Positions 21,053 through 24,000 of a stretch of DNA of 64,000 bases are shown here, piece after piece (within the stretch, counting starts at the first letter, position 1; every line of letters begins with the position of its first letter). This stretch comes from Kofleriaceae bacterium (GTDB taxonomy: Bacteria > Myxococcota_A > Polyangia > Haliangiales > Haliangiaceae). The stretch is from NCBI GenBank assembly GCA_965215005.1, contig CBDCCZ010000037.1, positions 1 to 64,000 of the forward strand, given 5' to 3'. Below the pieces are notes generated by a model. The model saw only the letters and a program-made list of their open reading frames with translations, ran no database searches and was not told the DNA's origin. The translations under genes were made by a program, and so were the position numbers.

Positions 21053-24000
21053 TTATTCGCTGCAGTAGAGCGGCTCTGTCACTGGTTGCCCGGTGATACG
21101 AGATGACAGCTTGAACACCAGTGTGATCGCCGTTACGTTATCGCGTTGCGCCGCCGGGACTCGCCCCAGGTCAACGTTGAATGTCGAGAAGGGTGACAAA
21201 CCCGCTGCGACGGTTCCTGGAAGAGGACCCGCGAGCTCCTCGTTTGCGAACACGGATAAGGCATCCTCGTGGCCTCCGAACAGGAGTCGGTTGCCGAGCG
21301 CGAGCCAATCGCCGTTCTCCATGATGTAGCTCTCCGTGCCCGCTTCAGTTGGGAACAGGAGCGATTGGTCGATGGATCCAGGTGACGCGAGGTAGCGAGC
21401 GTTCAGAGTGGCGGCATCATCCGTGGCGTTGAGCTCTACGAACACAGACATCGCCTCAATGATGGGAGACGCCTGCGAACATAATAGAGTCCCGCCCACT
21501 GATTCGATGTTGTAGAAGTCGCTGGGGCGTACAGTTAACGAGGCGGAGCGAAACGCGGATTCCTGGAGGCGCGACCAGGCCGTGGAGGCCAGGGATTCAT
21601 CGGCCTCCGGCCACACAGGTGCTGACGCTAAACACGCTTCAGGAACCTGACCGCGGTCGTTTGGCATGCATTCACAGCCATCCGGGAGGTTACCTTGAAG
21701 ATCGGGAACGCAGGGGCACGCTGGAGGAACGCCGCCAAAGTCATCCACTTTGCAAACGCAGTCGTCGGGCACGACTCCTGTAGCATCGGGCTGACATCCG
21801 GGGATAGGCGTGGGAACTTGAAGGCATCCTTGAGGAGAAAGAGTGCCATCCGGTCCGAGGATGCAGTGAGGACGGGCGAAGCGTATCGCGTAAAGCGCTT
21901 GTTGTTCATTGCTGCGGAGCCCGTCATCAAACAGGGTCGCGACACGATTGGCAACTGCAGAGAGTCGCTCGGCGCCGACGTCTACTGGGTCGTCGAGGCG
22001 GGTCTCCTTTAAGAGAACCAGGGGATGCTGATTCCCTTCCGTCGCTTCCTCGCGTAGTGAGCTCAACGTGCGTGGATACCGCAAAGACATGACTGGATAA
22101 ACGCTACTAATGAGCACGCCGCTAACGTCTTGGATCTGGGCGCCCAGCTGTGAGCCGGCCAGCGACCGCAGACGCCACTCTGGCAGTAACCTCGCAAGCT
22201 TTGAGCGCTCTTCGCCATACTGAGCATCGTGGACGATGGTCTGCGTACGCGCGAATATGCTGTCCATTTCACGCCAGAGCCGAAGAATCTGTGACTGTCG
22301 CTCGAGACTCGCAAGCTCTGCCGCCAGCCACGTATCGAACATGGCTACGAGGACCGGATCATAAGCGTCCAAGCCGCCAGTAACCTTGCCGGCCATCAGC
22401 GCGCGCGACTCTGCGCGAAATGCCTCGATCTCCGACGGCAAAAATGGTCCGTTCCTCAAGCCGTCCCGAATTTGTCCACGCAATTGGCTCGTTGTCTCGG
22501 CGGCAGCTTCAGCGAATAGTTTGACTAGCGCACCCTGTGGAGTGGAAACCCTCGTGTTGACCGTCATTACCGACCCGTGAACCGGGTTGCAGCCGGTGAC
22601 GTCATTTACGACAAAGTAGACATCGGCATCTTGATCCATGACGAATGCGGCGTTTGGATTCACCACCTGGACGTCGACGACGTGGCCGACGGCCGTCTCA
22701 TCCGGCTTCATCGCGACCATCAGGAGCGAACCCGCTGGAGCCGCTGCGAACGGAGTGCCGGGGGCTCGAAGGCCAGCGCTAAAGCTGGCGGACCACCGAG
22801 ACTCCGTTCCGCTGCTCGTAGAGTCGTCGGTGACGTCCGACCAGTCTCTCGAGATGCCGACACAGGCCTGCTGTGAGCCAAGGGTAACCGACACCGCTCC
22901 TGCTCCAATGCTCACGCTTCCGCCAGCGCAGGCAGAGGCATTGAGCGACAATGTGGTGGTGGTGACGTCGGAAACGCGCTTCGTCTCGCTCTGGAAGCCG
23001 TTATCTGTGTAGGAGATTGAGTAACCCTCCGGGCCCGTTTCGGCTGGGCTCGTCGCCACCGGCACGCTCTGACCCTCGGGGTCGAGCACGTTCATCTTTC
23101 GTATGGCGCAGTTGGGTGCCCAGCCGTTTTGCGTAGTCACCCGTAGGATGTCGCCTTTCTGAACCGCTTGCTTCCATGGCACCTCTCCGACCACGACGGC
23201 GACATTGGAGACGTCGACGAGTCCGCGGTTCGCATTGTGGCGGGCGTGGTTGGCGGACACCGAGAAGCTTGCTGACGCGACGCTGATTTCTAAGTTGGGG
23301 TCTAGGCTACGACCTTCGAGCGTACGCTCGAACTCTTGCGCATACGCGCCGAAGCGGCTGCGTTCGATTGCATCGCGATTACCTAGGCCGACGATTTCAT
23401 CGGCTACCGCCTTTAGTTCAACGCTAAGCTCGCCGGCCGTGTTCTGGAGACGGTCAAAGGTGGCATCGGCGTCTAGCTCTGCGGTTAGTTCTTGGACTAG
23501 AAGTGCGCGATCAGACCGATAATTCGCCAGCTCGTTGGACAGATTCTCGCTGCGCCGTTGCAGGTTACCAACCAGACCGACTCGATTGCTCTCTTGAATG
23601 CCTTCATTGAGGACGTTCTGGCCACTCGTTGAGAACATACCAACGGCTCTATGCCGCTCAGACTTGTCAAGTGCGACGCTGATCAGCCCGCGAAGTCCAC
23701 CCGAGAAGCGAGGGGAACTAGGGGATGTGAGAATAGTCTCGATCGGAACCGGATTTTCACTCTGCTGCGCATCTAGGTACGCATTCGCTAGGAGGTCGTG
23801 CCGTGATGCTAGAGCGATGATACCTCTGCGAAATTCCGGCCTTGCGATCCTCGAACCGCTGAGCTGAGCGACGGCCGCGGTCAAGCGTGCCTGCTGATGG
23901 AGCGCTCCCAACGCCTCCCATAACAACGACAACTCGCTGGTGTCGCGGGGCGTACAGCCGAGATAGCGGCATGCAACATCGTGCAGCGCACTGGCATCTT

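What the first reader, a model, noticed from the sequence alone, without database searches (positions are those of the whole stretch)
22170..23570. TcA-like helical hairpin tipped by a beta-pore-like stem instead of TM helices
Seen: a long heptad helix (~23320-23570) and a return helix (~22170-22345) enclose a beta domain. It contains a ~90-aa Ser/Thr-rich stretch (22770-23030: YSISYTDNGFQSETKRVSDVTTTTLSLNASAC-AGGSVSIGAGAVSVTLGSQQAC-VGISRDWSDVTDDSTSSGTESRWSASFSAG) with a small hydrophobic turn and two symmetric Cys. Known: Ser/Thr-rich hairpins with hydrophobic tips form the stems of aerolysin- and anthrax PA-type beta-barrel pores, whereas TcA channels are alpha-helical. Inference: a hybrid injector with a long beta-barrel channel, perhaps suited to bacterial envelopes.
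Basis: inference. Interest (0 to 1): 0.8.

Follow-up and report, generated by a model that had tools for sequence, protein, structure and literature searches.

The report
TcA-like lipoprotein with beta-hairpin tip
A large, unnamed lipoprotein encoded just ahead of three Rhs toxin genes looks like a slimmed-down relative of the insecticidal Tc toxin injector, but where that injector has membrane helices this one carries a sugar-binding-type beta domain with a long, disulfide-stapled beta hairpin that may be its membrane-piercing tip.

Summary
The finding lies in ORF 21053-25765 (-), a 1570-aa lipoprotein with no Pfam, NCBIfam or PDB sequence match. It belongs to a family of 414 clusters.

- **Gene context.** A TcB/TcC-type Rhs toxin gene lies next to it in 25 of 26 loci examined.
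- **Fold.** AlphaFold2 (pLDDT 81) gives two down helices (725-818), a beta domain (827-1076) and a 65-residue return helix (1137-1201). The beta domain has the LecA/PA-IL lectin fold (Z 11.1).
- **TcA likeness.** The helices plus the C-terminal domain find TcA channel and TcB-binding regions as best structural matches in two separate searches. The scores are modest (Z 6.9-8.5; Foldseek E 0.025 or weaker).
- **Ser/Thr segment.** It is an unmodelled insert (pLDDT 25-39), yet highly ordered across the family:
  - Both Cys are present in 113 of 120 sequences.
  - Hydrophobicity alternates with period 2 around them.
  - The two arms change length together in 2-residue steps, at least 11 times on a tree.

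It is therefore a long Cys-stapled amphipathic beta hairpin, not a globular fold or junk.

Membrane insertion and barrel formation remain inference. I read it as a new variant of the ABC (Tc) toxin A component. It is a candidate delivery device for Sec-exported Rhs toxins.

The parts
21053..25765 (-). ORF of the 1570-aa lipoprotein (P0001). The database copy starts at M20 (25708) and has 1551 aa.
   Evidence: P0002, 100% identity, 1551 aa
25604..25708 (-). Signal peptide with lipobox (…LVALVAVAAC, Cys54).
   Evidence: most hydrophobic window, 37-55. Lipobox-like N-termini in 81 of 121 family members of 1350 aa or more.
24566..25603 (-). Cys-rich, poorly conserved N-terminal region (residues 55-400). 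Not folded here.
   Evidence: Cys positions. Absent from P0003.
23642..24556 (-). All-helical region (residues about 404-708).
   Evidence: DSSP, pLDDT mostly 84-98; weak ARM/solenoid-type matches
23312..23593 (-). Two long 'down' helices (residues 725-764 and 768-818).
   Evidence: heptad z 2.6 for 732-816
22538..23287 (-). Beta-sandwich domain with the LecA/PA-IL lectin fold (residues 827-1076). It hosts the hairpin insert.
   Evidence: 2vxj_D Z 11.1, rmsd 2.8, 117 aligned of 120, 20% identity; 5odu_A Z 10.1
22772..23023 (-). Hairpin module, Y915 to G998: Ser/Thr-rich arm A (30 aa), C946, Gly/Ala/hydrophobic loop (21 aa), C968, Ser/Thr-rich arm B (29 aa).
22778..22969 (-). The part of the module that AlphaFold2 leaves unmodelled (residues 933-996, pLDDT 25-39).
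22928..22930 (-). Cys946 codon.
   Evidence: Cys in 113 of 120
22862..22864 (-). Cys968 codon.
   Evidence: Cys in 115 of 120
22385..22531 (-). Two short helices after the beta domain (residues 1079-1105 and 1110-1127).
22163..22357 (-). 65-residue 'up' (return) helix (residues 1137-1201).
   Evidence: It pairs with 768-818 as judged from the two-helix matches.
21095..21910 (-). C-terminal alpha/beta domain resembling the TcB-binding domain of TcA (residues 1286-1557). It includes a Cys/Pro-rich low-confidence insert at 1301-1380 (21626-21865).
   Evidence: 6l7i_A Z 6.9, rmsd 3.7, 138 of 179; 6l7i_A Z 6.9, rmsd 3.9, 139 of 179
15280..20949 (-). First TcB/TcC-type Rhs toxin gene (1889 aa, signal peptide), 103 bases downstream of the lipoprotein gene.
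7621..13461 (-). Second TcB/TcC-type Rhs toxin gene (1946 aa; FG-GAP, TcdB_toxin_midN, RHS).
1130..6856 (-). Third TcB/TcC-type Rhs toxin gene (1908 aa; Ntox10 C-terminus).

Best explanation
The ORF encodes the A-like (delivery) partner of the Sec-exported TcB/TcC-type Rhs toxins that follow it. It is a lipid-anchored protein built like the C-terminal half of a Tc toxin A subunit.

**Architecture**
- A helical region, then a long alpha-helical down/up hairpin, then a C-terminal domain like the one on which the TcB/TcC cocoon docks.
- At the tip of the hairpin, TcA has hydrophobic membrane helices. This protein has a LecA-type lectin beta sandwich instead.
- From the sandwich emerges a two-stranded beta ribbon of about 30 residues per strand, plus a loop of 8-51 residues. 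The ribbon is stapled by a cross-strand disulfide.
- The half of the ribbon near the Cys pair and the loop is amphipathic. The half near the domain is polar on both faces, with Ser lining the Cys face.

**Proposed mechanism (inferred)**
1. The protein oligomerises.
2. The lectin domains bind surface glycans of a target cell.
3. The ribbons of the protomers insert together as a beta-barrel stem that continues the helical conduit.
4. The Rhs C-terminal toxin passes through.

**Shown here:** the family, the synteny, the fold resemblances and the hairpin signatures.

**Inferred:** oligomer, disulfide, glycan binding, membrane insertion, barrel, translocation, and the kind of target.
For: **Family.** 414 cluster representatives at E<=1e-3 and 227 at E<=1e-30. 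Two further copies lie in the same genome.

**Synteny.**
- In the window the gene is followed after 103 bases by an Rhs gene with FG-GAP, TcdB_toxin_midN and RHS domains.
- Of 25 other loci, 22 have such a gene directly downstream on the same strand, 2 have it adjacent and divergent, and 1 has none.
- No canonical TcA_TcB_BD domain reaches its cut-off in this genome.

**Fold.**
- pdb_via on the 1200-residue model aligns model 218-1186 to the last ~500 residues of TcdA1, XptA1, XptA2, TcdA4, TcaA-TcaB and YenTc (Z 7.1-8.5; for example 6rw6_A, 264 aligned, rmsd 5.3).
- For the 391-residue C-terminal model, the 8 best Foldseek hits of 350,542 chains are all TcA (E 0.025-0.077).
- In a Foldseek-independent scan of 48,161 chains, the 4 best are all TcA-type (Z 7.3, 6.9, 6.9, 5.8). 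The next row is unrelated, with Z 5.6 over 82 residues.
- The beta domain matches LecA with Z 11.1.

**Hairpin.**
- Both Cys are present in 113 of 120 sequences.
- Anchored on the Cys, odd offsets are hydrophobic and even offsets polar on all four flanks.
- Per-sequence shuffle z has a median of 2.6; 81 of 113 exceed 2 and 2 of 113 are below 0. 63% exceed the 95th percentile of random windows from the same proteins.
- Arm lengths fall into classes (32,31) x47, (30,29) x30 and (28,27) x26. Arm A minus arm B equals 1 in 104 of 113, against a shuffle mean of 36 and maximum of 53.
- The classes switch at least 11 times on a tree built without the hairpin columns.
- The stretch between the Cys is the most hydrophobic of the mature protein, and there is no TM helix.

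**Literature.** In myxobacteria, signal-peptide Rhs proteins antagonise kin independently of T6SS, and how they are delivered is not established (passages of PMC10433427).
Against: - No sequence-level link to TcA. There are 0 Pfam hits for P0001. 0 of 36 family members hit a TcA or PA-IL model. A family profile found no TcA chain in the PDB sequences.
- All TcA structure scores are below the levels the tools call safe: Foldseek E 0.025 or weaker, and Z under 8.5 for a model rich in long helices.
- The protein lacks the large TcA shell and is about 1000 residues shorter (TcA chains have about 2300-2500 residues).
- In the window's own protein the Cys-anchored alternation is weak (z 1.6; 54 of 1000 shuffles reach it). 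A plain period-2 test on 929-990 is null (z 0.3).
- The loop between the Cys varies from 8 to 51 residues, which is loose for a membrane-spanning tip.
- AlphaFold2 folds the first 14 residues of arm A (915-928) into a small hairpin of its own (pLDDT 71-80), not into a fully extended ribbon.
- The low pLDDT of the insert may partly reflect poor alignment of a length-variable region.
- A period-2 pattern also fits a hairpin that packs on a protein surface.
Confidence: 0.42

Rival explanations
1. The protein is the TcA-like partner of the Rhs toxins, but the Cys-stapled ribbon is not a membrane stem. It would be a structural arm: a receptor-binding loop, a strap between protomers, or a plug or gate at the tip of the helical conduit. 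Its hydrophobic face would be buried in protein contacts.
For: - The period-2 pattern and the paired indels show a beta ribbon, not its environment.
- The loop between the Cys is very variable (8-51 residues), as receptor-contact loops often are.
- The host domain has a lectin fold.
- Jelly-roll capsid proteins appear among the fold matches. That such proteins often carry long strap-like hairpins is recalled, not tested here.
Against: - The distal half of both arms is polar on both faces, which is awkward for a strap packed on protein.
- The stretch between the Cys is the most hydrophobic of the mature protein, and nothing else could serve as a membrane element.
- AlphaFold2 finds no confident packing for it although the rest of the domain is confident.
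Confidence: 0.3
2. The hairpins insert into the producer's own outer membrane. The lipoprotein would then be an export duct, with a helical tunnel plus a beta barrel in the manner of TolC or CsgG. It would take the toxin out of the periplasm, where the Sec-exported Rhs cocoon would dock.
For: - Both partners carry Sec-type signals, so both reach the periplasm: lipobox and the Rhs signal peptide.
- The A-like protein is lipid-anchored.
- A helical hairpin followed by beta strands recalls TolC-type ducts. MexA, MacA and EmrA hairpins appear among the weak helix matches, at Z about 5.
Against: - The best structural relatives are TcA, not outer-membrane ducts.
- A lectin domain at the tip suggests recognition of a foreign surface.
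- An export duct alone would not explain how nuclease-type toxins (Ntox10, Tox-REase-7) reach a target cytoplasm.
Confidence: 0.12
3. The resemblance to TcA is coincidental (long helices plus a beta domain). The lipoprotein would be an adhesin, chaperone or anchor for the Rhs protein with no channel function.
For: - There is no sequence similarity to TcA.
- Z values are in the range the tool notes as common for helical models.
- One locus lacks an Rhs neighbour (L007).
Against: - TcA chains fill the first 8 places of 350,542 and the first 4 of 48,161 for the C-terminal model.
- They cover 139 of 179 residues of the isolated TcB-binding domain.
- This coincides with near-universal linkage to TcB/TcC-type genes.
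Confidence: 0.12
4. The Ser/Thr-rich stretch is only a disordered, low-complexity linker, possibly glycosylated or protease-sensitive.
For: pLDDT is 25-39. Ser+Thr are enriched. NCBIfam gives only a sub-threshold 'serine-rich protein' match (E 0.28, 8.4 bits against a cut-off of 650).
Against: Near-invariant Cys pair, fixed arm lengths, coordinated 2-residue indels and phase-locked alternation.
Confidence: 0.03

Closest known systems
Tc (ABC) toxin A subunits: TcdA1, TcdA4, XptA1/XptA2, TcaA-TcaB, YenTc A (PDB 6rw6, 6rwa, 6rw8, 8tqe, 6rwb, 6ogd, 9c4k)
   Same: - A long down/up alpha-helical hairpin is followed by a C-terminal alpha/beta domain. That domain superposes on the TcB-binding domain (Z 6.9, rmsd 3.7-3.9, 138-139 of 179 residues).
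- The gene lies next to TcB/TcC-type cocoon genes.
- Variable N-terminal, probably receptor-binding, modules occur. One member carries a PA14 domain.
   Different: - No detectable sequence similarity.
- About 1000 residues shorter, without the large shell.
- A lipoprotein signal. That canonical TcA lacks an export signal is recalled, not tested.
- B and C are fused and carry a Sec signal.
- The tip is a lectin-fold beta sandwich with a beta hairpin, and there is no hydrophobic helix.
- Oligomeric state unknown.
Beta-barrel pore-forming toxins: stems of anthrax protective antigen, aerolysin and alpha-haemolysin (features recalled, not fetched here)
   Same: - A Ser/Thr-rich, two-stranded segment with period-2 hydrophobic/polar alternation near its tip, polar further up.
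- No confident fold in the monomer model.
- A length (about 30 residues per arm plus the loop) in the range of the long PA and aerolysin stems.
   Different: - The host domain is a LecA-type jelly roll. No beta-PFT chain appeared among the 50 entries listed.
- There is a conserved cross-strand Cys pair.
- The hairpin sits at the end of an alpha-helical hairpin rather than on a beta-rich cap.
- Pore formation is untested.
LecA (PA-IL) of Pseudomonas aeruginosa and PllA of Photorhabdus luminescens, galactose-binding lectins (PDB 2vxj, 5odu, 5ofz)
   Same: The beta-sandwich fold covers almost the whole lectin (117 of 120 residues, rmsd 2.8, 20% identity, Z 11.1).
   Different: - Here it is a domain of about 250 residues inside a 1570-aa protein.
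- It carries an unmodelled hairpin insert of about 64 residues.
- No Pfam lectin model matches.
- Sugar- and calcium-binding residues were not compared.
TolC-type outer-membrane ducts (recalled)
   Same: The general idea of an alpha-helical tunnel continued by a beta barrel made of hairpins from several protomers.
   Different: No structural match to TolC was listed. There is a lipid anchor, a lectin domain and linkage to Rhs toxins.

Membership tests
Tc toxin A subunit (TcA) | Match to TcA sequence models (TcA_TcB_BD PF18276 and the other TcA Pfam domains) | tested here: not met
   - 0 Pfam families for P0001.
- 0 of 36 family members hit a TcA model at E<=0.5.
- A family profile against PDB sequences found no TcA.
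- PF18276 is not above its cut-off anywhere in the genome.
Tc toxin A subunit (TcA) | C-terminal TcB-binding domain fold | tested here: inconclusive
   Best matches are TcA in both searches: 6l7i_A Z 6.9, rmsd 3.9, 139 of 179, and Foldseek top 8 all TcA. But E is 0.025 or weaker and Z is under 8.
Tc toxin A subunit (TcA) | Long alpha-helical channel hairpin preceding the TcB-binding domain | tested here: inconclusive
   Helices 725-818 and 1137-1201 pack antiparallel. Model 218-1186 aligns to TcdA1 2006-2516 (Z 7.8, 264 aligned, rmsd 5.3). Long helices give middling Z easily.
Tc toxin A subunit (TcA) | Hydrophobic transmembrane helices at the channel tip | tested here: not met
   Outside the signal peptide, no 19-residue window exceeds KD 1.34. 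The tip is a beta sandwich.
Tc toxin A subunit (TcA) | Genetic linkage to TcB/TcC cocoon genes | tested here: met
   The window plus 24 of 25 other loci have an FG-GAP/TcdB_midN/RHS gene adjacent.
Tc toxin A subunit (TcA) | Pentamer with an outer shell and a stretched linker that drives injection | not testable with these tools
   Complex prediction allows at most 4 copies and 1000 residues. No shell-sized region is present (1570 aa against about 2300-2500 for the TcA chains).
Beta-barrel pore-forming toxins (aerolysin / haemolysin / anthrax PA type stem) | Conserved amphipathic beta hairpin with alternating lipid-facing and lumen-facing residues | tested here: met
   Phase-locked alternation around both Cys. 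Median z is 2.6 and 81 of 113 exceed 2. Indels are paired in the two arms.
Beta-barrel pore-forming toxins (aerolysin / haemolysin / anthrax PA type stem) | Ser/Thr-rich flanks of the insertion hairpin | tested here: met
   Arms have 19-21% Ser and 13-14% Thr, against 7.7% and 7.4% in the whole proteins.
Beta-barrel pore-forming toxins (aerolysin / haemolysin / anthrax PA type stem) | Pore-forming module fold of one of these families | tested here: inconclusive
   The host domain matches LecA, Ena and jelly-roll capsid folds. No beta-PFT chain is among the 50 entries listed. The domain was not folded and searched alone.
Beta-barrel pore-forming toxins (aerolysin / haemolysin / anthrax PA type stem) | Oligomerisation into a membrane-spanning barrel | not testable with these tools
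   Needs experiment or a 5-7-mer prediction. The 4-copy hairpin job gave no verdict.
PA-IL / LecA lectins | Beta-sandwich fold | tested here: met
   2vxj_D Z 11.1, rmsd 2.8, 117 of 120 aligned; PllA Z 10.0-10.1.
PA-IL / LecA lectins | Calcium- and galactose-binding residues | not tested
   No residue-level superposition was available. No Pfam lectin match.

The most novel reading that the evidence does not exclude
This family is a previously unrecognised class of ABC-toxin translocators. They are lipid-anchored A subunits whose TcA-like alpha-helical conduit ends in a beta-barrel stem built from Cys-stapled hairpins, forming a hybrid alpha/beta injector. A lectin domain aims the stem at the envelope of neighbouring bacteria. 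The family would be the missing, T6SS-independent delivery machine for the large Sec-exported Rhs toxins of myxobacteria and some other phyla.
Probability: 0.3. Interest if true: 0.9.

Novelty: new variant of a known kind. Interest (0 to 1): 0.8.

Why it matters
- **An open question.** Large signal-peptide Rhs/YD toxins with a TcB-like propeller are widespread. They are known to act without T6SS in myxobacterial kin discrimination, but how they reach a target is not established (passages of PMC10433427). The paper on bacterial teneurin-like toxins likewise states that there is no obvious delivery machinery (passages of PMC13018210).
- **A testable candidate.** A conserved, unannotated lipoprotein sits next to these genes in 25 of 26 loci and resembles the channel half of TcA. 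This gives a concrete candidate for that machine.
- **Structural interest.** If the hairpin is a membrane stem, it would be the first ABC-type toxin with a beta rather than a helical membrane element. It would also link the Tc toxins with the beta-barrel pore formers.
- **Annotation.** Surveys of Tc loci that rely on TcA sequence models would miss this family, and 414 clusters currently carry no annotation. The two source names seen are 'hypothetical protein'.

Tried and rejected
- **Complex prediction.** Four copies of the hairpin segment (residues 928-998) scored 0.02 and 0.00 against a mark of 0.42. The tool's verdict was 'no answer', and it is not used as evidence either way.
- **Sequence searches that gave nothing useful.**
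  - PDB by phmmer: two chance-level rows at E 0.16 and 0.48.
  - NCBIfam: one sub-threshold row.
  - Family profile against the PDB: only designed helical bundles, at E 0.003 or weaker.
  - ESM Atlas: no usable hit.
  - Word-indexed homologue searches: only 3 proteins each.
  - Earlier findings of this scan: nothing, in 3 look-ups.
- **Foldseek.** On the 1200-residue model nothing reached E<=0.001; TcA rows stood at E 0.11-0.5.
- **The search for related loci.** The 61-sequence alignment had no conserved stretch to search with. The 3-sequence alignment gave 3 named loci.
- **Immunity genes.** Nine small ORFs between and after the Rhs genes, and the C-terminal ends of two Rhs proteins, have no Pfam match. 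Immunity genes are therefore assumed, not shown.
- **Periodicity in this protein alone.** A plain period-2 test on 929-990 is null (z 0.3), and the return helix shows no heptad signal.
- **Literature.** Six searches and passages of four papers found no description of this lipoprotein family. Supplements were not opened. Subscription journals are outside the library.
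Full report
**What is there**

The finding lies inside one ORF, window 21053-25765 on the minus strand, 1570 aa. The database copy starts at Met20 and has 1551 aa. The N-terminus is a lipoprotein signal ending in LVALVAVAAC (Cys54).

The protein has no Pfam family. NCBIfam gives only a sub-threshold 'serine-rich' row (E 0.28, 8.4 bits against a cut-off of 650). There is no meaningful PDB sequence match.

Three Rhs genes of 1889, 1946 and 1908 aa follow on the same strand. The first begins 103 bases after the stop codon. 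They carry FG-GAP, TcdB_toxin_midN, RHS-repeat and Rhs core domains, and the last has an Ntox10 toxin end. The first and third are 98% identical over 1691 residues and then diverge. They start with a Sec-type signal peptide (sequence). They are therefore fused TcB/TcC-type polymorphic toxins.

**The family**

The word-indexed search found only two relatives. The exhaustive HMMER search with residues 371-1570 found 414 cluster representatives at E<=1e-3, 359 at E<=1e-10 and 227 at E<=1e-30. Most have 1400-1700 aa. A lipobox-like N-terminus is present in 81 of 121 members of at least 1350 aa.

The only source names seen are 'hypothetical protein', from Sorangium cellulosum and Sandaracinus sp.. 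Thirty-six members scanned against Pfam gave no recurrent family. One has a PA14 domain in its N-terminal part.

The window's genome has two more copies. In a sample of the window's own phylum, 2 of 301 genomes have a match, the window's genome included. In the phylum of Hyalangium versicolor, 27 of 201 do, mostly genomes of 9-13 Mb. Named loci come from Hyalangium, Pyxidicoccus and Myxococcus.

**Synteny**

I examined 25 loci besides the window:
- the 2 paralogues in the window's own genome;
- 3 named loci;
- 19 of the 34 places listed, taken from the top of the list. The 15 left out were the place already held as L006 and weaker or short-contig places;
- the one other hit from the window's own phylum.

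tblastn with the window's own Rhs proteins shows an Rhs gene of this type directly downstream on the same strand in 22 loci. It is adjacent but divergent in 2 (L022, L025) and absent in 1 (L007). The genome has no TcA_TcB_BD domain above the Pfam cut-off. The lipoprotein thus occupies the place that a tcA gene takes in a Tc locus.

**Fold**

AlphaFold2 on residues 371-1570 with 61 sequences gave mean pLDDT 81.3 and pTM 0.63. In protein numbering the model shows:

| Residues | Element |
|---|---|
| about 404-708 | helical region |
| 725-764, 768-818 | two long helices |
| 827-1076 | beta domain |
| 1079-1105, 1110-1127 | two short helices |
| 1137-1201 | 65-residue helix |
| to about 1284 | further helices |
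| 1286-1557 | alpha/beta domain |

Two stretches are unmodelled: 933-996 (pLDDT 25-39), which is the Ser/Thr segment, and a Cys/Pro-rich insert around 1311-1380.

- **Beta domain.** VIA-align on Foldseek's candidates shows it superposes on LecA (2vxj_D, Z 11.1, rmsd 2.8, 117 of 120 residues, 20% identity) and on PllA (Z 10.0-10.1).
- **Helical hairpin.** Two-helix coiled coils align jointly to about 768-818 and 1137-1188, so these helices form an antiparallel hairpin with the beta domain at its end.
- **Large model against TcA.** Model residues 218-1186 align to the last ~500 residues of many TcA chains, for example TcdA1 2006-2516, at Z 7.1-8.5. The isolated TcB-binding fragment 6l7i_A aligns to the C-terminal domain at Z 6.9, rmsd 3.7, 138 of 179.
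- **C-terminal model against TcA.** I refolded residues 1180-1570 alone (pLDDT 84.1, pTM 0.77). Foldseek's first 8 rows of 350,542 chains are all TcA (E 0.025-0.077, probability up to 0.82). The Foldseek-independent scan of 48,161 representatives puts four TcA-type chains first: 6rwb_A Z 7.3 over 216 residues, 6rwa_A Z 6.9 over 225, 6l7i_A Z 6.9 over 139 of 179, and 6ogd_B Z 5.8 over 191. Unrelated helical rows follow at Z 5.6 or less over 82 residues or fewer.

None of these scores is safe alone, and the tools say so. A family profile also finds no TcA sequence. The same family comes first in two independent searches, and the gene sits beside TcB/TcC-type genes. On that basis I put about 0.75 on a real TcA-like architecture. 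I do not file the protein as a member of the TcA sequence family.

**The Ser/Thr segment**

In a 120-sequence alignment the module has a fixed plan:
1. a TGPEGY-type motif;
2. arm A, 24-35 residues, 19% Ser and 13% Thr;
3. a Cys;
4. a loop of 8-51 residues (median 24), rich in Gly, Ala, Ser, Val, Leu, Ile and Phe;
5. a second Cys;
6. arm B, 23-31 residues, 21% Ser and 14% Thr;
7. a GLRL-P-TPFP-type motif.

Both Cys are present in 113 of 120 sequences.

*Alternation.* With sequences anchored on the Cys and no alignment gaps used, mean hydropathy alternates cleanly. Odd offsets are hydrophobic and even offsets polar, from about -5 to +11 around the first Cys and from -11 to +3 around the second. 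The two Cys therefore sit on the polar face and opposite each other. Further out both faces are polar, and the even (Cys) face is mostly Ser.

Per-sequence shuffles give a median z of 2.6; 81 of 113 are above 2, 42 above 3 and 2 below 0. 63% of members exceed the 95th percentile of random 32-residue windows from the same proteins. The window's own protein is weaker (z 1.6).

*Paired indels.* The two arm lengths fall into classes (32,31) x47, (30,29) x30 and (28,27) x26. Arm A is one residue longer than arm B in 104 of 113 sequences, against a shuffle mean of 36 and a maximum of 53. The correlation is r = 0.92, whereas arm length is unrelated to loop length (r = 0.02).

On a FastTree tree built from 1010 columns that exclude the hairpin, the three main classes switch at least 11 times among 103 tips. 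So both arms have repeatedly gained or lost two residues together. That is what pairing in a two-stranded antiparallel ladder demands. Tree error or recombination could inflate the count, but not create the coupling.

*Hydrophobicity.* The stretch between the Cys (945-963) is the most hydrophobic 19-mer of the mature protein, and no stretch qualifies as a TM helix.

**Reading**

Shown:
- a large unannotated lipoprotein family tied to TcB/TcC-type Rhs toxins;
- a TcA-like helical hairpin and C-terminal domain, at fold level;
- a LecA-fold domain at the hairpin tip;
- within that domain, a long Cys-bracketed beta ribbon that is amphipathic near its tip and polar further up.

Inferred: that the Cys form a disulfide, that the protein oligomerises, that the lectin domain binds glycans, that the ribbons insert into a membrane and form a barrel continuing the helical conduit, and that the target is another bacterium.

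A ribbon whose distal half is polar on both faces fits a water-filled barrel better than a strap packed on protein. This argues for a barrel but does not prove one.

The main rival keeps the TcA-like frame but makes the ribbon a binding, strapping or gating element. A second rival puts the barrel in the producer's own outer membrane, as an export duct. A third treats the TcA likeness as coincidence. A plain disordered linker is disfavoured by the data.

**Against the preferred reading**
- No sequence link to TcA.
- Structural scores in the grey zone.
- A very variable loop length.
- Weak alternation in this particular protein.
- AlphaFold2 folds 915-928 into a small local hairpin.
- The low confidence of the insert may partly be an alignment effect.

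**Literature**

Six full-text searches found no description of this family. For every paper below I saw passages only, and no supplements were opened.
- The 2012 survey of polymorphic toxins lists a 'TcdB/TcaC export pathway' defined by a signal peptide, SpvB and a beta propeller. The passages I saw name no lipoprotein partner (PMC3482391).
- The Tc toxin survey required proximity to tcA or tcB homologues (PMC7861908).
- The bacterial teneurin paper notes the absence of obvious delivery machinery for its related YD-shell toxins (PMC13018210; outline and passages).

**Verdict**

I rate it a new variant of a known kind, an ABC/Tc-type A component with a beta tip. Interest is high, and the membrane-stem step is open to direct experiment.

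Noticed in passing
window 1130-6856, 7621-13461, 15280-20949 (all -): Three tandem TcB/TcC-type Rhs toxin genes lie behind one A-like gene. The first and third are 98% identical over 1691 aa and then diverge. The third ends in Ntox10, and the ends of the other two have no Pfam match. This looks like toxin-tip displacement in a polymorphic toxin array.
   Followed up: partly
window 21626-21865 (-), residues 1301-1380: A Cys/Pro-rich insert with CxC pairs spaced 12 residues apart (Cys 1336/1338, 1350/1352, 1364/1366, then 1378) sits inside the TcB-binding-like domain. It is absent from the two closest relatives aligned and has low pLDDT in both models.
   Followed up: no
window 24566-25603 (-), residues 55-400: The N-terminal region has about 20 Cys and a conserved C-x-G-P-W-x-Y motif in most family members. 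It is otherwise variable, and one relative (P0013) carries a PA14 carbohydrate-binding domain there. It may be the receptor-binding part. It was not folded.
   Followed up: no
G000:C1 (L004:7237-17630) and G000:C48 (L005:2-7316): Two further A-like plus Rhs pairs lie in the same genome. One Rhs ends in Tox-REase-7. On C48 the Rhs reading frame appears split into two ORFs (609 aa and 613 aa), so it may be broken or contain a sequencing frameshift.
   Followed up: partly
genome level: The family is rare in the window's own phylum (2 of 301 sampled genomes, the window's genome included). It is common in the phylum of Hyalangium (27 of 201). This suggests that the window's genome acquired it by horizontal transfer.
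   Followed up: partly
window 27605-32489 (-): A SusD-like gene (weak Pfam hits) and a TonB-dependent receptor with three CarboxypepD_reg domains and a Plug domain lie just upstream of the toxin locus. They appear unrelated to it.
   Followed up: no
window 26045-27502 (+): A 485-aa ORF on the opposite strand lies between the SusC/D-like pair and the A-like gene. Its only Pfam hit is a weak one to UPF0236 (E 0.008), so it may be a mobile-element gene at the edge of the toxin island.
   Followed up: no
What follows the A-like gene there was not examined.
   Followed up: no
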